Of a DNA stretch of 50,901 nucleotides, positions 1 to 42,416 are shown one piece after another (the stretch's first letter is position 1; every line of letters starts with the position of its first letter). A model generated the notes under the pieces. That model was not told the origin of the DNA. It was given only the letters and a program-made list of their open reading frames with translations, and did no database searches. Position numbers and translations under genes: made by a program. The stretch spans positions 1 to 50,901 of the forward strand of contig CBFHTA010000004.1 of the NCBI GenBank assembly GCA_965658655.1. Reading direction: 5' to 3'. Origin of the DNA: Candidatus Babelota bacterium. GTDB lineage: Bacteria > Babelota > Babeliae > Babelales > CAIQNR01.

Positions 1-762
<762 letters not shown>

Positions 763-2214: not shown

Positions 2215-2264
2215 AGTTTTATCTTCTCTATGGCGCTATCAAACTAGATCAACTCATTGAATTT
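2215..2264 (+). repeat. 50-bp intergenic copy of dnaE 5' coding sequence (direct repeat with 4783-4832)
   Basis: agttttatcttctctatggcgctatcaaactagatcaactcattgaattt versus agttttctcttctcgatggcgctatcaaactagatcagctcattgaattt: 47/50 identical by manual alignment. Confidence 0.9.
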
Positions 2265-2406: not shown

Positions 2407-4461
2407 ATGAAAAAGTTATTATTACTACTACTTTTAGGTGCAACAGTTAAAACACATACTGAAAATCTTGTTATTGATGGTCATACCATTAAAACTATTG
2501 GAACATTTACTACAAATGACACAGACCAGTGGAATCATGCTGATTGCTCTCGATGTACACTTGATACAAAACCTATTGGTGGACTTTTAACATGCTCTTG
2601 TTGGACGAATAAAGGAAAATACGAAAAAACAGGTATTTACCCTGCCTTAGAAACAGTTACGCCCGATGGCAAAAAATTTACTCCTGTCATAAAAAAAACA
2701 TCCGATGGAACACTAACGTTAGACAATACACCTTCTGGTAGCACTCTTCTAGAAACAGGTTATAACTCAACAAAATATTTAGTTTATGGAAGCTTTAATC
2801 AAAGCATGAAAAGCTGTGTGCTTGAACCTTTTACAGATTATGCTGGAGGCAATGTTTCAAATGGGACTATTATTTGTGAAGGGAAATATTCAGCATTCCC
2901 AGCACTTACAGCAGAGTCTCCTTATGGTGGAATGCATACTCCAATCTTTACCAATAGAAATATGAAACTTGTAGATACACATAAAAACGGTTCATATCTT
3001 TCATTACTAAATAAATTTTTTGGTGGAAACTGGGAAAATAGAGCAGGAGGTTGCTATTATTCTATTTATCAGTCTAAAAGATTCTTTACTCAATGTGACA
3101 CAGGCCATTGCCATAGGACAATTTCCAAAGGGGGAGCAGTTACAGCAACTATATTTTCCGGAGGAATATACGGCCTTGCCCATCTCAAAGGCACTAAATG
3201 TAATAATATGAATATAATAACAGTAGATTCAACTTTTAAGCGCCTGAGAGAAATATATAATATTGCTAATGGCTCAGGTTATTTAACATGGAAAACAAAA
3301 GTAGGCAATGACTGGGCCACTCGAATAGGATCAAAAATAAATGTTAGGAGTATTGACAATATTAAAAAGCTTTATCCTGGTAGCTGGTCTAAATCTTGTC
3401 ATTCATGCAAGATTGTCGATGATGAATTAAGCTGTATTTGCGCTAATGGAAAACCTAAAGGTAACAAAACAACAGTCAATTTCCCAGTGGGAACAACTCT
3501 TATCAATGAAAATGGAAACTTAATTCCAACGGTTTCTAACAAGATAAAAAAACTTTTTCATGGTAGTTGGTCTGAACATTGTTATGCATGTGATTACCAC
3601 GATGATACATTAAGCTGCACCTGTCTTAATGGACAAGGTAAAGGCAACAAAACAACTGTCAAAGTTCCACATGGAACAACTCTTTGGAATGACAATGGAA
3701 ACTTAATGGCAACGGTTTCTAATAAGATCAAAAGACTTTTTCCTGGTAGTTGGTCTGAACATTGTTATGCATGTGATTACCACGATGATACATTAAGCTG
3801 CACCTGTTTTAATGAACAAGGTAGAGGTAGAAAGACAACTGTTAAAACCCCACCTCGAACAACTCTTATCAATGACGATGGAAGACTATTTGTAAGGGTT
3901 TCTAATAAGAAAAAAATTGAAGAACTTTTTCCTGGTAGCTGGTCTAAATCTTGTCATTCATGCAAGCTTTTCAGAGATGAATTAACCTGCATTTGCGCTA
4001 ATGGAAAACCTAAAGGCAACAAAACAACTGTCAAAGTTCCACATGGAACAACTCTTATCAATGACAATGGAAACTTAATTACAACGGTTTCTAACAAGAT
4101 AAAAAGACTTTTTCCTGGTAGCTGGTCTGAACATTGTTATGCATGTAACTACCACGATGATAGATTAAGATGTGTCTGTCGTGATGACCACGGTGAAGGT
4201 AGAAGGACCACCCTTAGAACCCCACCTGGAACAACTCTTGTGAATGACAGTGGAAGACTATTTGCAACGGCTTCAAACAAGAAAAAAATTGAAGAACTTT
4301 TTCCTGGCAGCTGGTCTAAATCTTGTCATTCATGCAAGTTTTTCAAAGATGAATTAAGCTGCACCTGTCTTGATAGACAAGGTAAAAGCAAAAAAACAAC
4401 TGTCAAAGCTTCACCTGGAACAACTCTTGTGAATGACAACGGAAAACTTAAAAAAGAGTAA
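2407..4461 (+). CDS. Secreted cysteine-rich protein with tandem cyanovirin-N/CVNH-like repeats (putative lectin)
   Basis: ATG at 2407 after GGAGAG, signal peptide MKKLLLLLLLGA. Six repeats follow the pattern GSWSxxCxxC-x6-LxCxC-x3-G-x4-TTV-x6-TLxNxxGxL, resembling the CVNH half-domain (FSxTC...LTSTC...ENVDGSL). Degenerate copies lie N-terminally. Confidence 0.8.
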   Translation: MKKLLLLLLLGATVKTHTENLVIDGHTIKTIGTFTTNDTDQWNHADCSRCTLDTKPIGGLLTCSCWTNKGKYEKTGIYPALETVTPDGKKFTPVIKKTSDGTLTLDNTPSGSTLLETGYNSTKYLVYGSFNQSMKSCVLEPFTDYAGGNVSNGTIICEGKYSAFPALTAESPYGGMHTPIFTNRNMKLVDTHKNGSYLSLLNKFFGGNWENRAGGCYYSIYQSKRFFTQCDTGHCHRTISKGGAVTATIFSGGIYGLAHLKGTKCNNMNIITVDSTFKRLREIYNIANGSGYLTWKTKVGNDWATRIGSKINVRSIDNIKKLYPGSWSKSCHSCKIVDDELSCICANGKPKGNKTTVNFPVGTTLINENGNLIPTVSNKIKKLFHGSWSEHCYACDYHDDTLSCTCLNGQGKGNKTTVKVPHGTTLWNDNGNLMATVSNKIKRLFPGSWSEHCYACDYHDDTLSCTCFNEQGRGRKTTVKTPPRTTLINDDGRLFVRVSNKKKIEELFPGSWSKSCHSCKLFRDELTCICANGKPKGNKTTVKVPHGTTLINDNGNLITTVSNKIKRLFPGSWSEHCYACNYHDDRLRCVCRDDHGEGRRTTLRTPPGTTLVNDSGRLFATASNKKKIEELFPGSWSKSCHSCKFFKDELSCTCLDRQGKSKKTTVKASPGTTLVNDNGKLKKE
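3361..4458 (+). repeat. Six tandem 183/189-bp coding repeats
   Basis: The GSW codons start at 3379, 3562, 3745, 3934, 4117 and 4306 (spacings 183, 183, 189, 183, 189). Confidence 0.95.
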
Positions 4462-4739: not shown

Positions 4740-7700
4740 ATGACTATGGAACAACATTTTACTCACCTTCACCTTCATACAGAGTTTTCTCTTCTCGATG
4801 GCGCTATCAAACTAGATCAGCTCATTGAATTTGGAAAAGCACACAATTTAAAAGCTTTAGCAATTACCGATCATGGTAATATCTTTGGTGCAGTAAAGTT
4901 TTTCCAAAAATGCAAGAAGGCGGGAATCAAACCAATTCTTGGAATGGAAGCATACATCACAGAAGATGCAGCTGTTCGATCTGTTGATAATAAATATTAT
5001 CACATGGTAATTCTTGTTCAGAACGAAACTGGGTACAAAAATTTATGTAAATTAATCGCCTTCTCTTTTAAAGAAGGTTTTTATTTTAAACCTCGCATCG
5101 ACTACAAAATTCTTAAGAAACACTCAGAAGGTCTCATTGTTACGTCTGCTTGCTTAGGTGGACACATTCCACAACTGTATAAACGTGGAGACATCGAAGG
5201 TGTTAATAAACAAATTGACTGGTTCCTAGATGTCTTTGGCAAAGAACGATTTTATTTAGAAGTGCAACCAGAAGACCAAGAAGAGCAAAAAGTTCTTAAC
5301 CAACATTTATATAAGCTAGCAAAAGAACGAGATCTCAATCTGCTCGCTGCTGGTGATTGCCACTACCCTACACTTGATGATCATCAAGCACACGAAGTGA
5401 TGCTAAATATTCAAACACACGGCAAACTAAGCGATCCTGACAGATATACATTTGGTGATTGTAGAACTTATATTCGCACACCAAAGAAAATGCTCGAAGA
5501 ATTTAGTGAACATCCAGAAGCGGTATGGAACGCCGGTAAAATTGCAGACATGTGCGATTTTGATTTTGAAATGGGCGTATTACACTTTCCAAACTTTCCC
5601 GTTCCAGAACAGTACACAGAAGAATCCTACTTTATACATCTTTGTAAACAAGGATTAGAACTTCTTTTTCAAAAAGGTTTTATTGCCGAAGAAAATCGTG
5701 AAAAATATCATGCACGGTTGGATCTTGAAATTGATTTGATTATTAAGATGGGTTACGTAGGTTACTTCTTGGTGGTGGGTGATTTTATTCAATGGGCAAA
5801 GAAAGAAAAAATTCCGGTTGGTCCCGGTCGAGGTTCTGCTGCGGGTGCACTCGTTGCATGGGCATTACAAATTACTAATATTGATCCTCTAAAATACAAT
5901 TTACTCTTTGAACGGTTCTTGAATCCAGAGCGTGTGTCTATGCCTGATATCGATATCGATTTTTGCATTGAAGGTAGAGAAAAAGTAATCGATTATGTAC
6001 GTGATTTCTATGGACACGACAATGTATGCCAAATCATAACCTTTGGTACCATGATGGCAAAAGGTGTTTTAAAAGACGTTGCACGCGTACTATCTATACC
6101 CTTTGAAGATGCGAATGCTCTTACAAGTTTAATTCCTAATCAATTAAATATTTCGCTCAAAGAAGCAAAAGAACAAGAACCTCGATTGCAAGATATGATC
6201 GACGGCAATCCACAAGTTGCTCAATTATTTGAAATTGCAGAACGACTCGAAGGATTAACACGACACGCATCAAAACATGCAGCCGGCATTGTAATCTCTC
6301 CCGAACGTATCGACGATGTATTACCCGTCTATATACCAGCTAAAACAAACGATCTAGTTACGCAATATGCCATGACAGAGCTAGAAAGCATCGGTTATTT
6401 AAAGATGGATTTCTTGGGTCTCAAAACACTTACACTGATTGATCGCACCGTAAAAATGATTGAAAAAAATCATGGCAAAAAAATTGACATCGACATGCTT
6501 CCACTTGATGATGAAAAAACATTTGCATTAATTTGCGCAGGAAATACATCTGGTGTATTTCAACTTGAATCTGAAGGTCTAAAAGAAGTATTACGAAAAC
6601 TACAACCTGATAAATTCGAAGATATTATTGCTGTTAACGCGCTGTATCGTCCAGGTCCACTTGGTTCTGGAATGGTAGACGATTACATTGAACGTCGGCA
6701 TGGCAGACAAAAAGTTACGTACTTATTACCCCAGCTCGAAGAAATTCTTGAAGAAACCTATGGGGTTATTGTGTATCAAGAACAGGTTATGAAAATTGCT
6801 TCTAATGTTGGTGGATACTCACTTGGAGAAGCAGATATTCTGCGTCGAGCAATGGGTAAGAAAAAAGTAGAAGTAATGGCTGAACAAGAAAAAATATTTG
6901 TTCAAAAATCTCAAGAACGCAACATAGATCCTAAAAAAGCAAAAGAACTTTTTGACCTCATGGCTTACTTTGCCGGTTACGGTTTTAACAAATCTCACTC
7001 TGCCGCATACGCTCTGCTTGCCTATCAAACAGCTTATTTAAAGGCTAATTACCCAGCTGAATTTATGGCTTGCTTAATTTCTTTAGAAGCAACAAACGCA
7101 GAAAAAATGTCCTTCTATTTGGAAGAAGCAAAACAGATGGAGATCGAGATTCTGCCACCAGACATTAACAAATCAGAAATTAATTTTAGTGTACACAATG
7201 GAACTATTCTTTTTGGTCTTCAAGGTATTAAAAATGTTGGTTTATCAGCACTACAAAATATTTTAGAAAAACGAGAAGAAAATCCATTCAACGATCTCTT
7301 AGACTTGTGTGTACGTGTTGATTTACGTACCGTTAACAAACGGGTACTTGAACATTTAACGTACGCCGGAGCGTTTGATAATCTGCCAGGCAATAGAGCA
7401 CAAAAAACTGCTGAAATTGGTATGATAGTTGATACTGCTGTCGATAAAAAACATGCCATTGAAACTGGACAAATGGGGCTCTTTGATGCGCCTACAGAAA
7501 AAGATGGTAGAGTTGACCCATACGTGTATCAACCCCTTGCACCGTGGACAGACAAAGAAAAGTTAGCAAAGGAATTAGACGTTGTTGGCTTTTATCTCAG
7601 TGCTCATCCGCTGGATGGTTACAAAAAACAATTAAAACGTTTAAACATGCAAACCTTTGCAAAATCTCATGAAAAAGCACAACAAGCAAACACCTTAAAA

Positions 7701-8186
7701 GATATTCCTATTGCAGGATTTGGCCTATTAAAAGGTAAGCGAATCATTAACACCAAAAAAGGTGACCGTATGGCGTTTGTACAGATAGAAGATTACAGCT
7801 CAAGCGCAGAAATTGTCGTGTTTCCTTCTGTTTTTAAAAAAATAGAGTCGTGGCTCGATGAATACACAGTGTTTGTTGTAAAAGGCAATGCAGACTTGGG
7901 TAGCCCAGGTAAATGTAAAATCTTGGCAAACGAAATGGTGCCATTGGAATTGCTCTTTCAAGAATGGAAGCAGTTCTCTTCTATCACCCTTTTGATGCCA
8001 GCCAAAGAAATTCCTGATTTAGAAAAAATCCAGGAGCTGTTACCAAAAGGAAAAGCTCCGTTGCATATCGTATTTCAAGAAAATGGGAAATTATTAAAAC
8101 TAAAAACTAAGCGTGCTATCTCTTTAGATCTCCCCCTGATTGAGCAGCTAGAAGGCTTAGATGTTAAGGTTCAACTGCAGGCTTAA
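4740..8186 (+). CDS. dnaE: DNA polymerase III subunit alpha
   Basis: PHP motifs HLHLHTEFSLLDG and TDHGN, plus GPGRGSAAG, catalytic PDIDIDF, KMDFLGL, YGFNKSH and a C-terminal OB fold. The start may be 4746. Confidence 0.98.
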   Translation: MTMEQHFTHLHLHTEFSLLDGAIKLDQLIEFGKAHNLKALAITDHGNIFGAVKFFQKCKKAGIKPILGMEAYITEDAAVRSVDNKYYHMVILVQNETGYKNLCKLIAFSFKEGFYFKPRIDYKILKKHSEGLIVTSACLGGHIPQLYKRGDIEGVNKQIDWFLDVFGKERFYLEVQPEDQEEQKVLNQHLYKLAKERDLNLLAAGDCHYPTLDDHQAHEVMLNIQTHGKLSDPDRYTFGDCRTYIRTPKKMLEEFSEHPEAVWNAGKIADMCDFDFEMGVLHFPNFPVPEQYTEESYFIHLCKQGLELLFQKGFIAEENREKYHARLDLEIDLIIKMGYVGYFLVVGDFIQWAKKEKIPVGPGRGSAAGALVAWALQITNIDPLKYNLLFERFLNPERVSMPDIDIDFCIEGREKVIDYVRDFYGHDNVCQIITFGTMMAKGVLKDVARVLSIPFEDANALTSLIPNQLNISLKEAKEQEPRLQDMIDGNPQVAQLFEIAERLEGLTRHASKHAAGIVISPERIDDVLPVYIPAKTNDLVTQYAMTELESIGYLKMDFLGLKTLTLIDRTVKMIEKNHGKKIDIDMLPLDDEKTFALICAGNTSGVFQLESEGLKEVLRKLQPDKFEDIIAVNALYRPGPLGSGMVDDYIERRHGRQKVTYLLPQLEEILEETYGVIVYQEQVMKIASNVGGYSLGEADILRRAMGKKKVEVMAEQEKIFVQKSQERNIDPKKAKELFDLMAYFAGYGFNKSHSAAYALLAYQTAYLKANYPAEFMACLISLEATNAEKMSFYLEEAKQMEIEILPPDINKSEINFSVHNGTILFGLQGIKNVGLSALQNILEKREENPFNDLLDLCVRVDLRTVNKRVLEHLTYAGAFDNLPGNRAQKTAEIGMIVDTAVDKKHAIETGQMGLFDAPTEKDGRVDPYVYQPLAPWTDKEKLAKELDVVGFYLSAHPLDGYKKQLKRLNMQTFAKSHEKAQQANTLKDIPIAGFGLLKGKRIINTKKGDRMAFVQIEDYSSSAEIVVFPSVFKKIESWLDEYTVFVVKGNADLGSPGKCKILANEMVPLELLFQEWKQFSSITLLMPAKEIPDLEKIQELLPKGKAPLHIVFQENGKLLKLKTKRAISLDLPLIEQLEGLDVKVQLQA

Positions 8187-8826
8187 TCTTTAGTATAAGA
8201 TTTGATTGCAAGTGTAGAAAAAAAGGTCCCAGTTCGACTTTTTCTGGCGACCAATGTTCTTCAGGATCAACCGGTATTGGAGAATCGAGCTCTTCGTACT
8301 CATACTTTTTACAGTTGAAATTTTTCTTTGGCTCATACTCATCCTCTTTCAATCCTTCCACTTGCCGACATTCTTTATCTCTATAGCTATCGACCACTAA
8401 CTCAAGACATGTTTTTTTCGCTAAAATAAATTCCTTACCATCTTCATCATCACTCACCAAATCATCACCATCGAATTTTTGGTTGCAGTTAAATATCCAT
8501 TGCGAAACAGTATACTTTGATCCATTAAAACGCACGGCATGATCACTAAATTTAGCTCCTAATGAATGCAACACCTGTATAGACTTAGGTTTTGCTTTTG
8601 CACAAGCAAAACCAAGAGACGAATACTGAACATTTTGGGAATCTTTATATATCCATTTTGAACTTAAACCAGGATAAGCTAAGCGTATGTTTTTTTCGTT
8701 TTCATCATCAATACTCATTCTCAAAAAGGCCTTGTATTCCCCTTGACTCGGCAATACTTCCATTATAAAAAAAGAAATACAAAAACAGAAAAACCAAAAA
8801 AATAAAAAACGCATAATACATCTCAT
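8164..8826 (-). CDS. Exported hypothetical protein with a single ankyrin-like motif
   Basis: Hydrophobic N-terminus (likely start 8814). SSLGFACAKAKPKSIQVLHSLGA fits an ankyrin repeat pattern. Acidic C-terminus; overlaps the dnaE 3' end by 23 bp. Confidence 0.6.
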   Translation of the reverse strand: MRCIMRFLFFWFFCFCISFFIMEVLPSQGEYKAFLRMSIDDENEKNIRLAYPGLSSKWIYKDSQNVQYSSLGFACAKAKPKSIQVLHSLGAKFSDHAVRFNGSKYTVSQWIFNCNQKFDGDDLVSDDEDGKEFILAKKTCLELVVDSYRDKECRQVEGLKEDEYEPKKNFNCKKYEYEELDSPIPVDPEEHWSPEKVELGPFFLHLQSNLILKIKPAVEP

Positions 8827-8898
8827 TAAAATGATTTATCAAAGTATTTACGACTTATTTTATCAGTCTAGTTAACAAGATTATTAAATCAATGAGTA

Positions 8899-9159
8899 TT
8901 ATTTGAGCCTGCTTCTTACAGCAATATCAAAGCATTTTTCAAAACGTTCTTTTGCTTTAAGGCTTTTATAAGTCTTATGTGCTTTTTTAAAAACATAGAT
9001 AAACTCTTTTTTTTGAGTTGCTTTTTCTTTGCAATTAGCGTGACCTGCTTCTTTACAAGCTTTAGTAATAGTTGAACTAGTATATTTGGGTTCTTCTTTA
9101 GCAGACAAACTAAAAGTAGAAATAAACAAAACAATAGAAAGTACTACTTTTTTATTCAT
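8899..9159 (-). CDS. Small exported basic hypothetical protein
   Basis: GGAGG before ATG at 9159, signal peptide MNKKVVLSIVLFISTFSLSA. Confidence 0.75.
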   Translation of the reverse strand: MNKKVVLSIVLFISTFSLSAKEEPKYTSSTITKACKEAGHANCKEKATQKKEFIYVFKKAHKTYKSLKAKERFEKCFDIAVRSRLK

Positions 9160-9185
9160 TTCTACCTCCAATTATTTAAAAAATA

Positions 9186-9665
9186 TTATTTCATATCCAT
9201 GTAGTCTTTAATCTGTGGGTTATATTCTTGTTCATATTGGTCATAAAGCTTTTTCTCAAGAAAATCTTTCTTATTTCCTAAAAATAGCTTGTCACCACTT
9301 CGAGGAACCACAACTACAGCATAATTACGAGGAGCATTAAAGTTTAAAATCCTCTTTTTTTCACTAAATCGAACAACAGGACCATCTTCTATATGCATAC
9401 ATTGGCAAATCAACATGCCATTAACACAATGACAATCATGGCACTTCTCCATTCCCATAGACTTGAAATTCTTAGGATTATTCATTAATGTACATAGTTT
9501 TTGTGTAAATTTTTTATCTGCATGAGTTTTATCAGGAGTGGTTTTTTGTTTTAGTTCTAGTACCCCATGATCAAAATATCCTGGAGATGGGTCCATGGGT
9601 CCATCAGGCGCAGGCATACCACCTACCATCAATAAAAATGCACTCACTAATAATAATTTCTTCAT
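9186..9665 (-). CDS. Exported protein with one degenerate CVNH-like Cys motif
   Basis: GGAGG before ATG at 9665, signal MKKLLLVSAFLLMVGGMPA, motif CHDCHCVNGMLICQC (CxxC-x6-LxCxC). Confidence 0.75.
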   Translation of the reverse strand: MKKLLLVSAFLLMVGGMPAPDGPMDPSPGYFDHGVLELKQKTTPDKTHADKKFTQKLCTLMNNPKNFKSMGMEKCHDCHCVNGMLICQCMHIEDGPVVRFSEKKRILNFNAPRNYAVVVVPRSGDKLFLGNKKDFLEKKLYDQYEQEYNPQIKDYMDMK

Positions 9666-9976
9666 TATATAACCTCCTATAATTACATACTTACCTCCAT
9701 GATAAGCTTGAATTATAAGAATACCACACCTCCAACGCCAGAAACAAGAGTTTTCCAACCTAAAGGGCATATCGCGCCTATTTAAAGATAAACACCCTTT
9801 CTATAAAACATATTAATCAAATCTATTGCTTTCAAATGATCCAATTTGCTATCCTAATTATTCAATAGTTTAATTAAGCTCGCATTGAGTTAAAAATTTG
9901 GAGGTTTAAAATGAAGAAATTATTATTAGTTAGTGCATTTTTATTGATGGTAGGTGGTATGCCTGCTACTGATGGA
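9600..9976. repeat. 66-bp inverted repeat (9600-9665 / 9911-9976) encoding duplicated signal peptides
   Basis: 63/66 nt identical by manual alignment. Both arms are preceded by GGAGGTT; the spacer is 245 bp. Confidence 0.92.
9826..9855 (+). promoter_or_regulatory. Candidate extended -10 promoter of the 9911 gene
   Basis: TTGCTT-18 bp-TATCCT with TGn preceding the -10 box. Confidence 0.4.
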
Positions 9977-11767
9977 TATTGGTCGAACCGTAAACCATCA
10001 TCTGGTAGATCAAATCTACAAAGGCAGAAAAACTTAATATTACCCATAAGTCAATCATCTCCTAAAGACCTACCGATCCCTATCCTAACAGGAAATCAAT
10101 TTGGAAAACTCAATTACAATGACAGAGTATGGATCAATGCATATGCTGAGATAGCAAATAGCCTCTTAAGTAATCCGAAATCAAACATAAGCATTGAACA
10201 AAATTGGAACTTAATACCCAAAACAGGAACGTATAGTCAAACAACACTAAAAAATTACCAAGCAAACCAAAACAAACCATATTATAACACTCACCACTAT
10301 GGCACTCATAACACATCACACCATACAACTGGCAAAAAACCAAATCTACAAAGTCAGAAAAACTTAATATTACCCATAAGTCAATCATCTCCTAAAGACC
10401 TACCGATCCCTATCCTAATAGGAAATCAATTTGGAAAACTCAATTACAACGACAGAGTATGGATCAATGCATATGCTGAGATAGCAAATAGCCTCTTAAA
10501 TAATCCAAAATCAAACATAAGCATTGAACAAAATTGGAACTTAATACCCAAAACAGGAACGTATAGTCAAACAACACTAAAAAATTACCAAGCAAACCAA
10601 AACAAACCATATTATAACACTCAGCACTATAGCACTCGCAAAACACCAACCCATACAACTGGCAAGAAACCAAACACTCATAACACATCACCCTATAGCA
10701 ATTGTGTATGGTGGATGAAAACATCCTTTGAAACGTGTCCTGACAGGTGTATCACCCTTACTCGATCATGGGATCGATATAAAAACAACAAATATTGGAG
10801 TGGCAGAATAGGAAAGAAAAACGGTAACACTTATTGCCATTGCTGTGAAAAAAAAGGCATGAAGCCCCATAAAACAAAACATAGAAAACACCATACAACT
10901 CGCAAGAAACCAAATTCACACAGGTGGGGGAACTTACTAGTGCCCATAAGTCAATCATCTCCTAGAGGGCTACCTATCCCTGTCTTAAAAGGATCTCACT
11001 TTGAAAACCTCAATTACAACGACAGAGTATGGATCAATGCATATGCTGAGATAGCAAATAGCATCAAAAAAAATTGGGAATTAATACCCAAAACAGGAAC
11101 GTATAGTCAAACAACACTAAAAAATTACCAAGCAAACCACAAGAAACCATATTATAACACTCACCACTATGGCACTCGCGAAACACCAACCCATACAACT
11201 GGCAAGAAACCAAACACTCATAACACATCACCGCACAACACTTGTGTATCTTGGATGAAATCACCTTCTGAAACATGTTCTGATGCATGTATCAACCTTA
11301 CTCGATCAGGATCGGAGGAATATAAAAACAACAAGTATTGGAATGGCACAACAACAAAACAAAACGGGAACACCTATTGCCATTGCTGTAAGAAAAAAAG
11401 CATGAATCTCCATACAACTAAGAAGAAGCCAAAGTCTCATAAAGTATCGCCATACAACAATGACAATGGAAACTTAACTGCAAGGACTTCTAACACCACA
11501 ACAACTTCCAACATGACACAAATTAAAAAAAGTTATCCTGGTAGTTGGTCTGAATCTTGTCATTCATGCAGTCTCAATCTTTCCAATAATACCTTAACTT
11601 GCACTTGCGATAATGGTCACTCTAAAGGCAACAAATCAACTGTCCACGCTAAACCCGGAACATCTCTTTGGAATGACAACGGAAACTTAACCGCAAAGAC
11701 TTCTAAGACAACTACTCATGAAACGAAGAAGCCGTTTAATCCTCGTAGTTTGGATGGAGTCTGGTAG
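9911..11767 (+). CDS. Secreted modular repeat protein (A-A-B-A-B-CVNH-like)
   Basis: Signal peptide, three copies of module A (LPISQSSP...DRVWINAYAEIANS...TGTYSQTTL), two copies of 6-Cys module B (CVxWMK...C...C...YWxG...GNTYCHCC) and a C-terminal GSWSESCHSC...WNDNGNL repeat. Confidence 0.85.
   Translation: MKKLLLVSAFLLMVGGMPATDGYWSNRKPSSGRSNLQRQKNLILPISQSSPKDLPIPILTGNQFGKLNYNDRVWINAYAEIANSLLSNPKSNISIEQNWNLIPKTGTYSQTTLKNYQANQNKPYYNTHHYGTHNTSHHTTGKKPNLQSQKNLILPISQSSPKDLPIPILIGNQFGKLNYNDRVWINAYAEIANSLLNNPKSNISIEQNWNLIPKTGTYSQTTLKNYQANQNKPYYNTQHYSTRKTPTHTTGKKPNTHNTSPYSNCVWWMKTSFETCPDRCITLTRSWDRYKNNKYWSGRIGKKNGNTYCHCCEKKGMKPHKTKHRKHHTTRKKPNSHRWGNLLVPISQSSPRGLPIPVLKGSHFENLNYNDRVWINAYAEIANSIKKNWELIPKTGTYSQTTLKNYQANHKKPYYNTHHYGTRETPTHTTGKKPNTHNTSPHNTCVSWMKSPSETCSDACINLTRSGSEEYKNNKYWNGTTTKQNGNTYCHCCKKKSMNLHTTKKKPKSHKVSPYNNDNGNLTARTSNTTTTSNMTQIKKSYPGSWSESCHSCSLNLSNNTLTCTCDNGHSKGNKSTVHAKPGTSLWNDNGNLTAKTSKTTTHETKKPFNPRSLDGVW
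10011..11395 (+). repeat. Internal coding repeats of the 9911 gene
   Basis: caaatctacaaa at 10011 and 10341 gives a near-identical 330-bp period. A third A copy starts at about 10911. B copies lie at about 10700-10850 and 11240-11395. Confidence 0.92.
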
Positions 11768-11822
11768 AGGGGAGTGGAATAAACTCCATGTTTTTATTAT
11801 TTTCTCAAAATGAAAGGTTAAA

Positions 11823-12833
11823 ATGAAGAAAAAAATATTAGTTATTACAATGACAATAATCGGTTATACATCGTCCATATTTGCATCTGATGCTGAAGTA
11901 TTTTATATAACAGAAAAAGCAACTCCTGCTTCAGACACACCAGAATACGAGGTAGTAACAGCCGCAGATCCTCAAAATAGTATTAATGGAACAATTGAGG
12001 GAGCACCACTTATTCAACTGCCCTCAGGTTTTTTAAACCGCTTACAAAGAGCTCCCCTTAAACACCTATCAAATCTCTTTAATAGAGGCTATCAATACGA
12101 GTTAAATCAAGAAATTTTAAATGACAAAAGAAAATTTTATGAATACATGCATAAAAAAATGCCAACTTTAACTCAACAAGAATCTGATGAAGGACTTTTT
12201 CCTATTGCTACAACAACACTTAAAAGCGCTGAAAAATCTCGTTCGATGAGGCTTGACAATGGAGAGGAAATATTCGACTATTCAACATGCAATTCTTTCT
12301 CTTCTCGCATAGCATTTACCATTTTAACTATTATCCGCATGATGGAACACAATGTACAACCGTCAGACCATTTTATTATTACCTCGATAGGTTCGGGCGA
12401 CTTATTTGATACCTACCTTTTATTGGCTTCATTAAAACAACTTGGTTTCAACAATGTATTTGTTAATATCATCGACCCTATCTATCCTGTTGCTCACAAA
12501 AAAGGTGCAAAAGCAACTAAGCCTTATACAAAAAAAAGCCTTAAAAAGTTAGCCGATCTTTTTCCAGAAAGAGTTTCTGCGTGGAAATATACTGAACAAT
12601 TTATTACTGATACAGGCGGGAAAACTGATCTTATCTTACTTATTGATCCTTATGGACCACTAAAAGGACTTTTAGAAAGTCAAGTTAGAGACTTATTACA
12701 ACTTCCAAATAATGAAAATGCTATTGCACTTGAAGCTAGCTGCGGACAAGGCAGTCGTAATGAAAATTTTTATGAATATACAAACCAAGAATACAAAAAA
12801 ATAATACGTATGATGCACAATGACCACTTCTAA
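11823..12833 (+). CDS. Exported hypothetical protein, possible class I methyltransferase-like fold
   Basis: Signal peptide ending IFA. ITSIGSGDLF followed by VNIIDP resembles SAM-binding motifs I and II (weak). Confidence 0.6.
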   Translation: MKKKILVITMTIIGYTSSIFASDAEVFYITEKATPASDTPEYEVVTAADPQNSINGTIEGAPLIQLPSGFLNRLQRAPLKHLSNLFNRGYQYELNQEILNDKRKFYEYMHKKMPTLTQQESDEGLFPIATTTLKSAEKSRSMRLDNGEEIFDYSTCNSFSSRIAFTILTIIRMMEHNVQPSDHFIITSIGSGDLFDTYLLLASLKQLGFNNVFVNIIDPIYPVAHKKGAKATKPYTKKSLKKLADLFPERVSAWKYTEQFITDTGGKTDLILLIDPYGPLKGLLESQVRDLLQLPNNENAIALEASCGQGSRNENFYEYTNQEYKKIIRMMHNDHF

Positions 12834-12841
12834 AAAATAAA

Positions 12842-13495
12842 TTACTTTTTTAGATGAAACAAAGCGTCTTCATGCCACATGCTATTCAATGCTTTAAGAT
12901 CTGACAAAAAGGTCTGAAGCTCTTTCTGGGAGCCAAACCGAAGCAACCCATTAAGCGTTTTGTGTAGATAGTCTGTAACCATTTCTTGCTGCGTATATTT
13001 ATGGATAATCGCAGCAAAGATAACTTTTTTATAGATATCTATTTTTTCGCCACCGTCTAATTCTTGATCGCATTGTTTAAGCACTTCAAGAGCCTTTGCT
13101 ACTGAACCCTTTTTAAGCCATTCAAGACAAAGCTGTCTTTGATAATACACAACTTTTTTAGAATCTTTGAGTTGTGCGTAGAGATCGATAATTTTTTCTA
13201 AAAACTCTACTTTTTGCTCAATCGCAATAAGCTTTTCGTACACTGTGCTAGCTTCTACAGTATTACCCTCTTCTTGATACATATGCGCAGCTCTAATATA
13301 TTCTGTTACAGCTTGACCATCTTCAAAAAACGAAAGAATATCGCCCTCTAGTTGCTTAATAAAAGGCTGATTATCATCAAGAGAGTAGGTCAAGAGACGT
13401 AATAAGCTTAAAGCCCGTTCTTTTTCCCCGCGCCCAATACATTCGGCTAACTTAAACCACGCGATGCTCTGCTTATTGAGTGAGACTGGTTTCAT
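12842..13495 (-). CDS. Alpha-helical TPR-like hypothetical protein
   Basis: 217-aa ORF with GGGG upstream and a TPR-like segment AVTEYIRAAHMYQEEGNTVEASTVYEKL. Confidence 0.7.
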   Translation of the reverse strand: MKPVSLNKQSIAWFKLAECIGRGEKERALSLLRLLTYSLDDNQPFIKQLEGDILSFFEDGQAVTEYIRAAHMYQEEGNTVEASTVYEKLIAIEQKVEFLEKIIDLYAQLKDSKKVVYYQRQLCLEWLKKGSVAKALEVLKQCDQELDGGEKIDIYKKVIFAAIIHKYTQQEMVTDYLHKTLNGLLRFGSQKELQTFLSDLKALNSMWHEDALFHLKK

Positions 13496-13607
13496 ACTTA
13501 GTACCCCTTACTCATCCTTTTTCTACAAACTATGCATTTCACCATAGTACATTCATAAGCAGAAGAGAAGAATCCCTCTGATTTTTATAATTTAAGCTGA
13601 TTTTTTG

Positions 13608-13635
13608 TTGACAAATTACCTAGGAATAGTACCTT
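13608..13635 (+). promoter_or_regulatory. Candidate promoter of tRNA-Phe
   Basis: TTGACA-16 bp-TACCTT, about 40 bp upstream of the tRNA. Confidence 0.5.
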
Positions 13636-31146: not shown

Positions 31147-31983
31147 TCAAAAAACTTGCTTTGCTTTTTGAAGTTCTCGAGCACGCAACTCAAGTTGAGC
31201 TGATCGTTTAGCTGAACATGGATGAGTTCCAAGGAACATATGATCAAATGCGCTTCCAATACGTGCAAACAAGTGATTGTATTGACCTTTTGCATGAAGA
31301 TCTTTAAAGAACTGACTACCAGCTTTTACCACTTTTGGATCAGTAGAAGCATAGTAATCTGCATTATATTCTTGATGACGAAAATATTTAGCAAGCCCCA
31401 AGAAAAAGAATGGTACACTCCCGAAAAACACTTCATCTTTTACGTCAGAAAAACTTACACCTGCCATACTTGCAATTATCAATTTTCTTTTAAAGATATC
31501 ACCATGAAGAACGTGTCCACATTCGCGCCCCATAATAAAGTTTACCTTTTCTTCAGAAAGAGGTACTACGTCTTTTTCGTTTATACTTGCACCATAACCA
31601 GAACCCAACAGTAACAATGTTCCTAACGGAGATGGCATCACAGCTGCATTACCCGCTAAAGGCATGTTAGGGTTATAGTATACATGATCAATTACTACAC
31701 CCTTATCTAAGCATTTAGATTTCAATGTATCTATAACATCATGATTAATAGTTGGATTAGTCTTTTGAATATTCGCTTCACGTACAAGATACGCATATGA
31801 GAAAACCTGCAACGTAGTAAGATAAAGATAGGTTCCCAGAAAACCTGCAGCACCTTGTATATAATTAATGCCGCCAATTGAACGAGTAGAAGTGATACCA
31901 TGAGGCTCAACATCTGCCGCACCCACTTGTTGCCCAACAAGAGCCAGTAATAAAAACAAATTAAGTTTTTTGGAAATAATCAC
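31147..31983 (-). CDS. Exported M48-family peptidase paralog with HExxH altered to RECGH
   Basis: GTG at 31983, signal peptide, motifs NAAV, MGRECGH, EYNAD and THPCSAKR. Confidence 0.8.
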   Translation of the reverse strand: MIISKKLNLFLLLALVGQQVGAADVEPHGITSTRSIGGINYIQGAAGFLGTYLYLTTLQVFSYAYLVREANIQKTNPTINHDVIDTLKSKCLDKGVVIDHVYYNPNMPLAGNAAVMPSPLGTLLLLGSGYGASINEKDVVPLSEEKVNFIMGRECGHVLHGDIFKRKLIIASMAGVSFSDVKDEVFFGSVPFFFLGLAKYFRHQEYNADYYASTDPKVVKAGSQFFKDLHAKGQYNHLFARIGSAFDHMFLGTHPCSAKRSAQLELRARELQKAKQVF

Positions 31984-32155
31984 AATCAACCTTTCCTTAA
32001 GAAGAAAAATAATAATGTACAATATCTATTCGGTTAGTATACACGCGAAAATGAAAAGAAACCATTACAATGGTCTATTCAAAAAGATGTATTGGGATTT
32101 TTTTTAAAAAAACTTCTGTATGGGTGCCAGTAAATTTAACACGTTCAGAATAGAC

Positions 32156-34125: not shown

Positions 34126-34761
34126 TTATTTTTCACTATTAATTTTAGCTATTGCTTTTTGTGCTGCTCCTATGCCGTTGTCTCGATTGTAGAGACGAGG
34201 ATCAAAGGTACCCTGAGGTGTAACAATAACTTTAATTGATCGTCCACCGACATAGTCTAGCTCTGGCCAACATGCGCGGCCTTTTTTTACTGCTAAATCT
34301 AAAAATCTAGAAAAAGTATGCTCATTAAGATGCGTATTACAGGGGCTTAAAGTACGGATTGGTAATGCATGCATGAATAACGCTCTTACAACGTCTTCTT
34401 GATCAAATTTTGATATATCAACAAGATTATCTTCTCTATAACCAAGCTTTCCTTCAAGATCACTGACCCAACAAACCGCATCTCCCTTTGGTTTGGGAAA
34501 TTTACGCCCCGCACCTTTCAATATTTGTATTACTTTTCGTGCTTCCTTATTCATCATCTCTTTTTCCAATTTAGGACGGATTGGATCAAAACATATACCC
34601 GATATTTTCATTATACGAATTTGATGAAGAAGAACTTTAATAGTGGTGTGATCTTCTTCTGTTAACTCAGAAGAAGGTGATGGCGACTCTAATTGGAATT
34701 GGTTTTCCCCAGGAATCACTACCGTTGTAAAACTTAAAAATATAAGAAAAATATATTTCAT
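34126..34761 (-). CDS. Exported hypothetical protein
   Basis: Signal peptide MKYIFLIFLSFTTVV and a distinctive C-terminal LDYVGGRSIKV...FDPRLYNRDNGIGAAQKAI. Confidence 0.75.
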   Translation of the reverse strand: MKYIFLIFLSFTTVVIPGENQFQLESPSPSSELTEEDHTTIKVLLHQIRIMKISGICFDPIRPKLEKEMMNKEARKVIQILKGAGRKFPKPKGDAVCWVSDLEGKLGYREDNLVDISKFDQEDVVRALFMHALPIRTLSPCNTHLNEHTFSRFLDLAVKKGRACWPELDYVGGRSIKVIVTPQGTFDPRLYNRDNGIGAAQKAIAKINSEK

Positions 34762-35101
34762 TTAATATCCTTTGCAATCTTTAACGAAACTTCATTAATC
34801 GACAATACACCATCATTAAGATTGGCATGTACCGATCGCATGGCTTTTTCAAACCCTGCTTTTGTTAAATAGCCCACAGCATTGAATGCTGAAATCACAG
34901 CATCGAATTTACCGATTTTTACTGTTCGCATGTCAGTTTCAAAGAACTTAATTTTTTGTTTTAATTTTTTTGCTTTGTGAGTATTTTTTCTATAACTCGA
35001 TTGGCTTTTAAAGACTTTTCTTCATTCAAAACATCGTAAAATTCAGCTGATGTATCAAGATACGATACTTTGGGGGCAGTATGTTTGGTAATTTTCTTCA
35101 T
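34758..35101 (-). pseudogene. Class I methyltransferase pseudogene (internal deletion/frameshift, truncated)
   Basis: MKKITKHT...FYDVLNEE...IEKILTK stops at 34961-34963. A second frame gives KIKFFETDMRTVKIGKFDAVISAFNAVGYL...NLNDG. Motif I is missing. Confidence 0.75.
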
Positions 35102-35149
35102 ATTTTAATATCCTTTGCAATCTCTAACGCAACTTCATTAATCGACAAT
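34761..35149. repeat. 46-bp direct repeat (34761-34806 / 35104-35149)
   Basis: tttaatatcctttgcaatct[t/c]taacg[a/c]aacttcattaatcgacaat: 44/46 identical. Confidence 0.9.
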
Positions 35150-35658
35150 CCAGTTGTATCTAAAAACATAATGTTTGCTTTTGAATTCCAAACGGTAAGA
35201 GTATCCCAAAGAGAAAAATCCAGTTCACTCCAACAATTATCTTTTATAACATGTTGCTTATATGCTGGATCTTTATGATGCTTACGCAACCAATCAGCCC
35301 ATGCAAGCGTGTGCTTGTCAGGTGTATCACCGCGCTGTTTAAGACGCTCAACACGTTGTTTATCTTGCACATCAAGAAAGTAATAATTAATATTTTGTAT
35401 TTTTAACGCTGATGGACAAGCGAGAAGCTCACCTATAGCCATTTGCCCAACAAGTGTAACGTTTTTTTCTTCTTCTAAGATCTTTCTCAACCACTGTTCT
35501 GTTGTTTGCTGCCGCCATTGAGTATCTGCATCTTTTGGCACACCAATAGAATCAAATTCAAAAACTACAAAATCTTTTCCAAGTAATTTTTGAAGATCAG
35601 GAATTATAGAAGATTTACCAGACCCGCTCGCACCACTAATAAAATAAATAGACATCAA
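35098..35658 (-). CDS. P-loop NTPase / small-molecule kinase-like protein
   Basis: Walker A GASGSGKS at the N-terminus and C-terminal LDTTGLSINEV. Confidence 0.85.
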   Translation of the reverse strand: MMSIYFISGASGSGKSSIIPDLQKLLGKDFVVFEFDSIGVPKDADTQWRQQTTEQWLRKILEEEKNVTLVGQMAIGELLACPSALKIQNINYYFLDVQDKQRVERLKQRGDTPDKHTLAWADWLRKHHKDPAYKQHVIKDNCWSELDFSLWDTLTVWNSKANIMFLDTTGLSINEVALEIAKDIKI

Positions 35659-35724: not shown

Positions 35725-36657
35725 TCAGGCTGATGCCGCAACATATATCGACTGGTTCTTTTGTTTTCGAAGACTTTGATTATAATAAACTAAAGTCTCA
35801 CTCTTACCTTGCTCAATCTCGTTTAAACGTTTTTCTAAACATTTAATACGAGATGCTGCGCAGCCATGAGAATCAAAGATATCTGTAACATCTTTTTTAG
35901 GATCGAATTCACCTAGAACATAAGTATATTGCTCTTTCTCTAAGTCTGCTCTCCAGAAATCAATACCCGCTTTAATAACTTTAGGATCGTCTGAAGCATA
36001 ATAATCAGCGTTATATTCTTGTTGACGACTTAAAATCATTCTTACGGAATGACCAGCATATGCACAGAACAAAGCATATGTATAAAAATCTAAACTCGAT
36101 AAATAAAAAAGTTGAGAAACAAAGTTTAATGCAACCCATTCCCCCGTAAGCGTAATCGCTGCCAGCAACTCTCTATAAGATCCATCATTATGCTTAATGT
36201 GATTACACTCATGCCCAAGAATAAAAAGGATTTGTTCGTGCGTTAATGGTTTTACATCTTCGTGTTTACTTAATCCATACCCAGAACCAATGAGCAGAAC
36301 ATTTCCGCTAAACGTAGAGAGAACCGCTGCATTGCCTCGATGATGCATTGTAGGATCATAAAAAACATGGTCTATCACAATACCGTTCTTCAAACATAAC
36401 TCTTTAAAAAGCTTTACTCGGTCATGACGGATATTAGCATTCTTACTTTGTTTTATTGCACCCTTGGCGTAATAGGCATAACTGCTATGTTTTACAACTT
36501 TCTGCAAACAGTAGGTACCAACCATAAACCCCAAAGCCGTTTTAACCGTAGAACCTAAAGACATAACTCCAACAGAAAATACTATAGCCGCTGGACGCAC
36601 AGAAACTGAACTAAGCAAAAAAACACTACATAGTGCCATTTTTTTAAAGAAAGACAT
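35725..36657 (-). CDS. Exported M48-family metallopeptidase paralog
   Basis: Signal peptide, motifs NAAV, LGHECNH, EYNAD and SHGCAASR. Confidence 0.82.
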   Translation of the reverse strand: MSFFKKMALCSVFLLSSVSVRPAAIVFSVGVMSLGSTVKTALGFMVGTYCLQKVVKHSSYAYYAKGAIKQSKNANIRHDRVKLFKELCLKNGIVIDHVFYDPTMHHRGNAAVLSTFSGNVLLIGSGYGLSKHEDVKPLTHEQILFILGHECNHIKHNDGSYRELLAAITLTGEWVALNFVSQLFYLSSLDFYTYALFCAYAGHSVRMILSRQQEYNADYYASDDPKVIKAGIDFWRADLEKEQYTYVLGEFDPKKDVTDIFDSHGCAASRIKCLEKRLNEIEQGKSETLVYYNQSLRKQKNQSIYVAASA

Positions 36658-40471: not shown

Positions 40472-41419
40472 ATGTCTTCTTTTATAAAAAATAGTTTATT
40501 TGTTTTAAGCTTATGTTTTGTTGTTCCAGCTCATACTGAATCAGAGAAATCTCAATTATTAGAATTTATAAATAACGAAACAGTAGCCCAAGGTATCCTT
40601 GGATCGATCTTATCTTATAAATTGCTCTGCTTTATGACCAACTCTACTTTTGATGCATATCATAAAATCGGCATGCAACAAGAAAAAGACGCGCTACAAC
40701 AAAATGCCTCTGATGAAGCAAAGCGCATAGGTGAAGCAATTCGCGAAATAAAGTTAACTCTAAAAACAAATAAGGGAAAAGAACCTCTCTTTGTTGCGTG
40801 CTCTTCAAACTTTCCAGGACTAATAGCAACCATAAAACAAGCAAACAATTATGGAATTATACTCGGAGGAGGGTCCCCAGACTTACTCTTTGGTTTAAGA
40901 GCTAACAGTCAAAAGGCTTCTAAAAAAGCGAGAGAATGCTTAATTAATCATGAATATTCTCATTTTAAACATAATGACGTACAGAAACGAAATATATTTG
41001 CATCAATGCAACCTCTTCTAATAACATTAACCTGGAGAGCAATGCGATATTCAGGAAACAATAAGATGACAGCAGGAACCGCAAGTATAATTACAGCATT
41101 AATACATAGTTATTTGGGAGGAAAACTCTCTCAAATGCATGAAACTAGAGCAGATTTAGAAGCATCTCAAGATCCAGAAGTACTTAAAGCTGGTGCTACT
41201 TGGTTCAAAGACACCTGGCATCCTTTTGAAGTAGAAGAATCTAAAAAGAATATTCACAATCTCTGCAAAAACCTAAATTTATCTTGTATTGAAGGTACCG
41301 TTGCCAACTTCTTACAATGGTTTAGAACGCACCCTACTAATGATCAACGAGCTAAAGATTTTATAAAGCATGCAGCACAATTAAGCTCAAAAAAACTCGA
41401 AAAAAAACAGACTCTTTAA
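40472..41419 (+). CDS. Exported M48-family metallopeptidase paralog
   Basis: Signal peptide, motifs INHEYSH, ETRAD and THPTNDQR. Confidence 0.82.
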   Translation: MSSFIKNSLFVLSLCFVVPAHTESEKSQLLEFINNETVAQGILGSILSYKLLCFMTNSTFDAYHKIGMQQEKDALQQNASDEAKRIGEAIREIKLTLKTNKGKEPLFVACSSNFPGLIATIKQANNYGIILGGGSPDLLFGLRANSQKASKKARECLINHEYSHFKHNDVQKRNIFASMQPLLITLTWRAMRYSGNNKMTAGTASIITALIHSYLGGKLSQMHETRADLEASQDPEVLKAGATWFKDTWHPFEVEESKKNIHNLCKNLNLSCIEGTVANFLQWFRTHPTNDQRAKDFIKHAAQLSSKKLEKKQTL

Positions 41420-41531
41420 AAACTCATTTTAAGCTCACAAGCTTATTCCTAGGCCTTTCCACTTGCGTTTTTCCACCTTGATGGCATATTCAAATAGAAT
41501 TTATACATAAAGTAACGAAACGGAAATTATA

Positions 41532-42416
41532 ATGTCTAAAGTATTTAAAGTAATTTTAAGCTTAAGTTTACTGATTTTAACTCAAACTCATGTTGCTGCA
41601 GGGCGATTTATTCAATTTTTTAAAGCTCCTTCAATAGCATTAGGAGTAACGGGCTCTATTGGTAGTTATACTTATCAAAGTGACGCTGTAAAAGAAAATT
41701 TCACAAAAGAAAAAAATCTAGCCCTAGAACAAACATCTAATCCTGAACTAGAAACGAAAAAAGCAGAGCTCAAACATTTCTGTGAAAAACAGAGAGGTGT
41801 TCATGTTGACTATATGACTTTTAATTCCATGGATATAGAAAATCCTTTAATAGAAGGGATTAAAATAAGCGGAGCCGCGGCACAAATGCATAACGGAGAG
41901 TCTCTTATACTCCTTGGTGATGAATTTAAATCAGACAATTCTAATACACCTCAAGAATTAAAAGATTTTTTGATAGGACATGAATGTACACATCTTGAAA
42001 AAGAAGACCTAAAGAAAAGATGTGCTACCAGGGCGCTCATACCTTTATCTGTAACAACAGCATGGAGATGCGCTCGATTTGGAGGAAGAGGAAAGATTGT
42101 TGGATCATTAGCTGGATTAATAGGATTATTAACAAGCACAAAAATTACAAATTCTTATATACATTTTCAAGAATTTAGAGCTGACGAAAAAGCTTCCGAA
42201 GACCCAAATACATTAGAAGCTGGAGCGCAGTTCTTTGAAAAAATATATAACGAACAAGTTGCCCAACAAAAAGCAATCAATACTTATGGATCTGAAGAAG
42301 AAAAAATACATTATGCTGGAGTAATGGGAGTTATGAAAGCAATGCACCCGTGCCCTCTAGAACGTGCACAAAGACTTCGAAAACAAGCTACGAAAATTCG
42401 TACAGAAGAAAAATAG
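41532..42416 (+). CDS. Exported M48-family metallopeptidase paralog
   Basis: Signal peptide, motifs IGHECTH, EFRAD and MHPCPLER. Confidence 0.82.
   Translation: MSKVFKVILSLSLLILTQTHVAAGRFIQFFKAPSIALGVTGSIGSYTYQSDAVKENFTKEKNLALEQTSNPELETKKAELKHFCEKQRGVHVDYMTFNSMDIENPLIEGIKISGAAAQMHNGESLILLGDEFKSDNSNTPQELKDFLIGHECTHLEKEDLKKRCATRALIPLSVTTAWRCARFGGRGKIVGSLAGLIGLLTSTKITNSYIHFQEFRADEKASEDPNTLEAGAQFFEKIYNEQVAQQKAINTYGSEEEKIHYAGVMGVMKAMHPCPLERAQRLRKQATKIRTEEK

What the first reader, a model, noticed from the sequence alone, without database searches (positions are those of the whole stretch)
9600..9976. Divergent genes with a 66-bp inverted duplication of the signal peptide: candidate promoter-swap switch
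Seen: both genes begin MKKLLLVSAFLLMVGGMPAxDG with 63/66 nt identity, including synonymous sites, then diverge completely. The 245-bp spacer holds both RBSs, a TGnTATCCT box facing right and a TATAAT (9712-9717) facing left. Inference: recombination between the arms would invert only the spacer, exchanging the two promoters while leaving both proteins nearly unchanged. Alternatively it records recent capture of an export signal by a new gene. No recombinase is encoded in the window.
Basis: partly seen in the sequence, partly recalled or inferred. Interest (0 to 1): 0.7.

Follow-up and report, generated by a model that had tools for sequence, protein, structure and literature searches.

The report
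Shared export-signal start, not a switch
Two back-to-back genes for secreted proteins in a small-genome marine bacterium begin with the same recently copied ribosome site and export signal, a local copying habit seen at several other gene pairs in this lineage, and nothing found points to a purpose-built flipping switch.

Summary
The repeat is real: 63/66 nt, or 78 columns at 93.6% with the RBS, with a 35-bp perfect core and only two copies in the genome. The switch reading is not supported. A same-genus genome has the orthologous two-promoter spacer in the same orientation and no arms. Both promoters score alike (15.6 vs 14.7 bits), and a core inversion leaves both proteins unchanged. No invertase was found; the only site-specific recombinases are XerC- and XerD-like. 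Near-identical 5' ends occur in 10 of 572 tandem neighbours and 1 of 146 divergent ones, some with unrelated bodies, and also in two relatives. Both genes relate to the congener's rightward gene, and the right gene is a mosaic of locally borrowed modules, one cyanovirin-like. Best reading: local copying or conversion of an RBS plus signal-peptide cassette among fast-evolving secreted genes. Occasional RecA flipping is not excluded, because the available contigs cannot see a crossover in the core. The scan noted similar shared heads in other genomes.

The parts
9600..9677 (-). Left arm: RBS (GGAGG, 9673-9677) plus first 22 codons of the left gene; 35-bp perfect core at 9610-9644
9900..9976 (+). 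Right arm: RBS (GGAGG, 9900-9904) plus first 22 codons of the right gene; 35-bp perfect core at 9932-9966
9678..9899 (.). Unique 222-nt spacer with two back-to-back promoters; collinear and in the same orientation in congener G001
   Evidence: 75% over 87 nt and 80% over 44 nt
9718..9747 (-). Predicted left-facing sigma-70-type promoter TTGTTT-N18-(TGn)TATTCT
   Evidence: 14.7 bits, 99th percentile of the genome's own promoter matrix; conserved in G001; function inferred
9826..9855 (+). Predicted right-facing sigma-70-type promoter TTGCTT-N18-(TGn)TATCCT
   Evidence: 15.6 bits, 99th percentile; -35 and -10 conserved in G001; function inferred
9688..9706 (-). Conserved 19-nt leader element of the left transcript: 7-bp hairpin holding a second SD-like GGAGG; in this genome followed by an ATG-TAA start-stop
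   Evidence: 3 copies in 2 of 16 family genomes, both of this genus; hairpin predicted; role unknown
9186..9665 (-). Left gene L, 159 aa: signal-peptide-like start, then a B-like stretch and a degenerate 4-Cys module (about 9321-9488); no family hit
9911..11767 (+). Right gene R, 618 aa mosaic: signal-peptide-like start; three copies of a module related to the C-terminus of gene C2:177048-177344 (10011-10344, 10341-10674, 10931-11214); two Cys modules; one cyanovirin-N-like half domain (11510-11704)
2407..4461 (+). Gene U with six cyanovirin-N-like half repeats; closest relative and likely donor of R's C-terminal module
   Evidence: Pfam CVNH E 3.7e-6, 28.1 bits over cut-off 24.5; 57% aa and up to 74% nt identity to R
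8164..12833 (.). Variable island between dnaE and the conserved gene at 12842-13495; holds the divergent pair
   Evidence: dnaE abuts that gene in 7 of 11 family loci examined; island present in G001

Best explanation
The arms are a recently shared expression and export head (RBS plus signal peptide plus about 6 residues), not recombinase sites. In this lineage secreted-protein genes in variable islands evolve by local copying: a 50-200-bp stretch around a start codon is duplicated or gene-converted onto a neighbour, while mature regions are replaced by modules borrowed from nearby genes. Here the head descends from the ancestral rightward gene of the island. One copy now stands behind the left promoter on gene L, which keeps B-like sequence past the arm. 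The other stands on gene R, whose body was rebuilt right after the head, which is why identity stops abruptly at codon 22. Each gene is read from its own promoter. SHOWN: the arms, synteny, orientation in one congener, the genome-wide pattern, module homologies, the recombinase inventory. INFERRED: promoter activity, secretion, lectin-like function, direction and order of copying, and duplication versus conversion.
For: (1) 5' identity of at least 45/54 nt occurs in 10 of 572 adjacent tandem pairs and 1 of 146 divergent pairs; 17 of 2,700 pairs within 3.5 kb against 5 of 373,578 others, and those 5 belong to one array split by a contig end. (2) Tandem examples with unrelated bodies: C1:215999/216581 (49/54, z -0.6), C1:427559/428126 (45/54, z 0.3), C1:352080/352663 (54-nt perfect, -36 to +18, z 0.7). 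C1:409555/410000 shares -96 to +105 while the bodies are far more diverged. (3) Relatives: G001:C26 pair 51/54 with body z -0.5; G014:C7 pairs 47/54 with z about -1.3; all same-strand. (4) The G001 spacer is collinear and in the same orientation relative to dnaE and pheS, with no arm between its two genes. (5) Both heads match G001's rightward gene B (43/66 and 42/66 nt). Past the arm L keeps 13/21 nt with B and R only 6/21 (binomial p 0.002 at 0.3 background). (6) R is a mosaic. (7) No serine or IS110-type recombinase found; two tyrosine recombinases, best matching XerC and XerD, and 14 of 16 family genomes have exactly two matches. (8) Promoters are near-equal.
Against: This is the only inverted case and, apart from a DnaA-box-like array, the only close inverted repeat of 25 nt or more at 85% or more in the genome. 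Gene conversion between inverted arms is itself recombination and can be resolved as an inversion. Only one congener was available, and it is distant (73% protein identity at the flanking gene) and lacks the arms, so it cannot show what sister strains with arms do. L's body link to B is moderate (E 8.9e-4), and its Cys module was not significant against profiles built without it (E 0.4-0.7 among 3,703 ORFs). A B-like gene sitting on the left is also what a past block inversion followed by a spacer flip would leave. Gene starts and signal peptides came from my own crude rules; no SignalP-type tool was available.
Confidence: 0.78

Rival explanations
1. Incidental or selected RecA-type flipping: the 35-bp perfect core supports low-frequency homologous recombination that inverts the spacer and keeps the arms alike. 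A flip swaps promoters and leaders, so the structured left leader would tune translation of whichever lectin-like protein it faces.
For: RecA is present. A core crossover leaves both proteins unchanged. The leaders differ: the left has a conserved hairpin with a second SD-like motif and a predicted hairpin over the RBS (-9 kcal/mol, z -2.1), while the right is unstructured (z 0.65). A minimum of about 25 bp for RecA recombination is recalled, not from a call.
Against: Promoter scores are near-equal. One mismatch splits the arm and the RBS spacing differs, which frequent exchange would tend to erase (inference). In run X1 one unbroken contig covers 9615-9961, so no crossover outside the core is visible. 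In a second sample (X2) one contig at depth 4.4 runs 9549-9774 through the left arm in the reference arrangement; this is weak, since X2 has no cover on the right arm and contigs drop rare variants.
Confidence: 0.13
2. Programmed site-specific inversion switch (inverton), driven by a distant invertase or by co-opted XerC/XerD.
For: The geometry fits a partial-intergenic inverton: inverted repeats flanking promoters. The genes encode putative surface or secreted lectin-like proteins of a probable host-dependent bacterium. The genome is 95% complete, so a gene could be missing.
Against: PF00239, PF01548 and PF07508 give 0 matches. The two PF00589 proteins match XerC/XerD models at 283 and 314 bits and invertase models at only 48-68 bits. 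The arm shows no unusual dyad symmetry (98 of 500 shuffles reach the score) and no dif-like match. There is no silent gene and no single promoter. The congener has the same orientation and no arms.
Confidence: 0.04
3. L and R come from one whole-gene inverted duplication; purifying selection kept the signal peptide while the mature parts diverged quickly, with no later copying.
For: Both bodies relate to B. Several tandem paralogues in this genome are more alike at the 5' end than in the body.
Against: Synonymous sites are nearly all shared (2 synonymous differences in 22 codons) while the L and R bodies are barely alignable (z 2.2-2.7). The same signal peptide differs at 23-24 of 66 nt from G001's B, so it is not tightly constrained. 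R's modules are closer to other genes than to L.
Confidence: 0.04
4. Assembly artefact.
For: The genome is a short-contig metagenome assembly with a gap of Ns and breaks at repeats.
Against: The arms differ at 3 of 66 sites plus the RBS spacing. Contigs of run X1 hold both arms with their own flanks (9321-9639, 9615-9961, 9937-10054), and X2 holds the left arm in context. X1 may be the source sample and is not independent.
Confidence: 0.01

Closest known systems
Mycoplasma agalactiae vpma and M. bovis vsp loci (PMC2268961: passages read; PMC5634654: passages read)
   Same: Surface-protein genes share a conserved 5' untranslated region and signal peptide ahead of variable mature parts, in mixed orientations.
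   Different: Those loci have one unique promoter, silent genes, a recombination site in the 5' untranslated region and an adjacent recombinase (Xer1, Mbr). Here there are two genes with two promoters, sharing only RBS plus coding sequence, and no adjacent recombinase.
Campylobacter fetus sap locus (only reference titles and short passages seen in PMC1950947 and PMC5634654; primary papers not held; details recalled)
   Different: As recalled, one promoter serves several silent S-layer cassettes and the shared 5' homology is hundreds of bases. Here it is 78 nt with a promoter for each gene.
Partial-intergenic invertons and shufflons (PMC10028968: passages read)
   Same: Inverted repeats overlap genes and flank a short segment.
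   Different: These are defined by reads in both orientations and by invertases. Neither is shown here; of more than 11,000 candidates predicted from sequence, that paper reports 22 validated.
Shared 5' heads of secreted or lipoprotein families (Borrelia erp upstream homology box, recalled; scan notes e1-2309138 and e1-3110463)
   Same: A promoter-proximal head and signal peptide are re-attached to different mature domains by recombination.
   Different: Here each head is private to a pair or small cluster of neighbours rather than genome-wide, and it usually lies in tandem.
Cyanovirin-N homology (CVNH, PF08881) lectins
   Same: U passes the Pfam cut-off; R and G001's B carry a related half repeat (profile E 3.9e-23 and 4.9e-7).
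   Different: R holds only a half domain within a mosaic; L's module is not significant; sugar binding is untested.

Membership tests
Site-specific inverton (invertible promoter) | Inverted repeats flanking a promoter-bearing segment | tested here: met
Site-specific inverton (invertible promoter) | Dedicated serine, tyrosine or DEDD invertase | tested here: not met
   0 matches for PF00239, PF01548, PF07508; two PF00589 proteins best match XerC and XerD, slightly under the equivalog cut-offs; genome 95% complete
Site-specific inverton (invertible promoter) | Both orientations present in reads or sister strains | tested here: inconclusive
   Contigs break at the 35-bp core and a core crossover makes no new 31-mers; one distant congener without arms has the same orientation; no sister strain found
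Site-specific inverton (invertible promoter) | Inversion changes output (ON/OFF or different product) | tested here: inconclusive
   Proteins unchanged and promoter scores near-equal, but leaders differ in predicted structure; no expression data
vpma/vsp-type single-promoter inversion locus | Conserved 5' region and signal peptide ahead of variable mature parts | tested here: met
   RBS plus 22 codons; signal peptide judged by composition only
vpma/vsp-type single-promoter inversion locus | One unique promoter with silent promoterless genes | tested here: not met
   Two predicted promoters, both conserved in G001
vpma/vsp-type single-promoter inversion locus | Recombinase gene next to the locus | tested here: not met
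   None among 44 window ORFs; the xer-like genes lie on contigs C1 and C2
sap-type homology-driven inversion (features recalled) | RecA present and inverted 5' homology | tested here: met
   homology is only 78 nt with a 35-bp perfect core
sap-type homology-driven inversion (features recalled) | Single promoter and several silent cassettes | tested here: not met
   Two copies only; two promoters
Locally shared 5' head of secreted-protein genes | 5' cassette far more alike than bodies, recurring at independent loci regardless of orientation | tested here: met
CVNH lectins (PF08881) | Profile match over the curated cut-off | tested here: inconclusive
   Met for U; R only through its homology to U; not met for L
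CVNH lectins (PF08881) | Carbohydrate binding | not testable with these tools
   needs a glycan-binding assay

The most novel reading that the evidence does not exclude
An invertase-free, two-promoter swap. RecA or XerC/D recombination in the shared signal-peptide sequence flips a spacer whose two halves differ in leader structure, shifting translation between two lectin-like secreted proteins without changing either. The B-like gene now on the left would be the trace of an earlier flip.
Probability: 0.1. Interest if true: 0.65.

Novelty: new member of a known kind. Interest (0 to 1): 0.3.

Why it matters
As a switch it is unsupported. What remains is a clear view of how a reduced, probably intracellular bacterium with no transposase or invertase found builds new secreted proteins: it copies a ready-made RBS and signal-peptide head onto neighbouring sequence and shuffles small modules between nearby genes. 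That bears on the origin of the many secreted orphan genes reported in Dependentiae (44% of proteins with signal peptides, enriched in ORFans; PMC6561590, passages read), if the organism belongs there. That assignment is my inference from genome size, 37% GC, a tandem cluster of ATP/ADP translocase-like genes and a high share of signal-peptide-like starts; no tool named it. My searches listed no paper on this head-sharing in that phylum, but they cover only open-access texts.

Tried and rejected
Sister strains: metagenome scans with protein L and with the flanking gene found no locus. Genome scans gave nothing or no new close relative. Closer relatives exist as proteins (75-83% identity to the flanking gene), but their DNA could not be fetched. 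No RNA holder was listed. Run X3 laid nothing. The hole in X1 at 10103-10233 proves nothing. The listed joint 11706 to 11536 carries letters of gene U's repeats and is read as cross-mapping.

CsrA control of the leader hairpin: no PF02599 match in 4 of 4 genomes. No Rfam match in 8000-13000. The dif-like scan gave 33 loose matches, none in the arms, and was uninformative. The generic promoter scan missed both promoters and found no excess over shuffles (10 vs 13.1).

Protein L has no homologue but itself among 28 candidates of similar length. Its single-sequence fold was unusable (mean pLDDT 43) and was not searched. The MVL-lectin idea for the second Cys module gave only E 0.091 below cut-off for G001's gene A and nothing for R or B, so it is a lead only. 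The idea that R's body descends from G001's gene A is not supported (z 2.5; profiles do not cross-hit). The atlas hit to CVNH for R's module scored 0.80, within chance range. The lineage could not be named by tools.

Correction: the DNA comparisons involving gene B were out of register and were redone for B against L and R. The '35/66' in notebook entry 2 is gene A against L and R, not A against B; A against B in register was not computed. Primary papers on the sap locus and on duplication linked to inversion were not held. No supplements were read.

Full report
OBSERVATION. The two divergent genes start at 9665 (-, gene L, 159 aa) and 9911 (+, gene R, 618 aa). Their first 66 nt agree at 63 positions, with two synonymous changes and one P/T change. 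The match extends over both ribosome sites to 78 columns at 93.6%, with a 35-bp perfect core at 9610-9644 / 9932-9966. The genome (G000, 928,713 bases, 4 contigs, 95% complete) holds no third copy. Apart from a DnaA-box-like array on C1, it is the only inverted repeat of 25 nt or more at 85% or more with arms 30-10,000 nt apart.

THE SPACER. A promoter matrix built from 516 upstream regions of this genome (spacers of 16-18 nt enriched: 69, 80 and 84 regions against about 35 in shuffles) picks one strong site on each strand. The right-facing TTGCTT-18-TATCCT scores 15.6 bits and the left-facing TTGTTT-18-TATTCT 14.7 bits, both at the 99th percentile. The matrix includes these two regions among its inputs, so the scores are slightly circular. 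Both sites are conserved in the same-genus genome G001 and the TATAAT is not. The left leader carries a 19-nt hairpin element found three times in two of 16 family genomes, both of this genus.

SYNTENY. The pair lies in an island between dnaE and a conserved 217-aa gene. In 7 of 11 family loci examined those two genes are adjacent; the other four have different neighbours. G001 has the island with a divergent pair of secreted-type genes, A (leftward) and B (rightward). Its spacer is collinear with ours and in the same orientation relative to dnaE and pheS. No arm between A and B was found. The two-promoter spacer is therefore older than the arms, or outlived them, and works as an ordinary divergent promoter region. 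This is one distant congener (73% identity at the flanking protein), not a sister strain.

THE GENES. The shared head matches B's start (43/66 nt for L, 42/66 for R). For the next 21 nt L stays B-like (13/21) and R does not (6/21). Both mature parts align with B (z 8.2 and 7.3; 0 of 300 shuffles) but hardly with each other (z 2.2). R is a mosaic. It has three copies of a module 41% identical to the C-terminus of a gene on C2, and a C-terminal half repeat 57% identical in protein and up to 74% in DNA to the repeats of gene U, 5-8 kb upstream. U's repeats pass the Pfam CVNH cut-off. The sequence just after R's arm resembles the linker before R's second repeat (seen by eye), so the arm's outer end is most simply a fusion junction (inference). 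L's Cys module is only suggestive (E 0.4-0.7 against profiles built without it).

THE PATTERN IS GENERAL. Among 868 crudely called genes, 5' identity of at least 45/54 nt occurs in 17 of 2,700 pairs within 3.5 kb and in 5 of 373,578 other pairs, those five from one array split by a contig end. Among adjacent pairs it occurs in 10 of 572 tandem and 1 of 146 divergent pairs, so the single inverted case needs no special cause. Of eight tandem pairs examined in detail, three have unrelated bodies (z -0.6, 0.3, 0.7) and five are paralogues (z 8.7 to 78) whose heads are generally more alike than their bodies. In 25 loci of relatives (193,865 bases, partly overlapping and partly chosen by signal-peptide similarity, so not a census), same-strand neighbours with shared heads and unrelated bodies appear in G001 (51/54) and G014 (47/54); no inverted pair was listed. 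An earlier scan note on this genome (e1-7874379) describes local gene-boundary duplications; I saw matching scars, such as a 50-nt 94% copy of the dnaE start at 2215-2264.

RECOMBINASES. No serine resolvase, large serine recombinase or IS110-type enzyme was found. The two tyrosine recombinases best match XerC and XerD models. Across the family 14 of 16 genomes have two matches, one has one and one has three. RecA is present. The arm has no unusual internal symmetry.

READS. Only contigs from two samples of one study were usable; 16 pieces were shown and 30 more were not. In X1, possibly the source sample, contigs stop exactly where 31-letter words enter the core. A crossover inside the core makes no new 31-mers, so orientation there cannot be read. 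The unbroken contig 9615-9961 shows no crossover outside the core. X2 has one low-depth contig through the left arm in the reference arrangement, which is weak support.

MECHANISM AND VERDICT. Most likely (0.78) the head of the island's rightward gene was copied or converted onto the gene behind the left promoter, and R's body was rebuilt from local modules; both genes are expressed from their own promoters. Occasional homology-driven flipping (0.13) is not excluded and could matter only if the two leaders differ in output. A programmed site-specific switch is unlikely (0.04). It resembles vpma/vsp and sap loci in sharing a 5' head, but fails their defining single-promoter and recombinase features (PMC2268961, passages read; sap details recalled). 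The lineage (probably Dependentiae/Babelota) is my inference, not a tool result. Novelty: new member of a known kind. Interest 0.3.

Noticed in passing
G000:C1:168210-168410: Two inverted arrays of four TGTGGATAA-type boxes each, resembling DnaA boxes (motif recalled); probable replication origin.
   Followed up: no
window 2215-2264: 50-nt, 94% identical copy of the dnaE 5' coding region (4783-4832) in an intergenic gap; a similar 49-nt gene-end copy lies at 34761-34809 / 35104-35152.
   Followed up: partly
window 9688-9706 (-); L020:13660-13678; L021:3922-3940: 19-nt leader hairpin with an SD-like GGAGG, identical in three places upstream of secreted-type genes, each followed by a second ribosome site; here followed by ATG-TAA. 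No CsrA or Rfam match.
   Followed up: partly
window 2407-4461: Secreted-type protein with six cyanovirin-N-like half repeats; related modules were found in 6 of 16 family genomes.
   Followed up: partly
L078 (G014:C7:13006-16098): Tandem array in which a 115-aa CVNH-like gene and an unrelated 254-aa gene share one signal peptide, the two-gene unit being duplicated nearly exactly.
   Followed up: partly
G000:C1:520259 to C2:3900: Tandem array of at least six signal-peptide-bearing C2H2 zinc-finger-like proteins with near-identical 5' ends, spanning a contig break; zinc-finger call by eye.
   Followed up: no
G000:C1:489882-495556: Four tandem ATP/ADP translocase-like (PF03219) genes.
   Followed up: no
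window 47986-48963: Protein with a RING finger and leucine-rich repeats, a eukaryote-like combination that looks like a host-directed ubiquitin ligase.
   Followed up: no
window 9320 and 9141: Run X1 shows second alleles at about half depth; 9320 changes Ala116 to Pro in gene L. Single contigs under depth 5, so possibly errors.
   Followed up: partly
L020:13457-13512 / 13569-13624: G001's spacer holds an imperfect 56-nt inverted repeat (71%) just upstream of both -35 boxes; possible regulator sites.
   Followed up: no
window 1-700: Collagen-like Gly-X-Y repeats at the contig start, matching the end of C2; a likely assembly break.
   Followed up: no
window 31147-32022, 35725-36657, 40472-42416: Four peptidase M48-like paralogues within 11 kb.
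   Followed up: no
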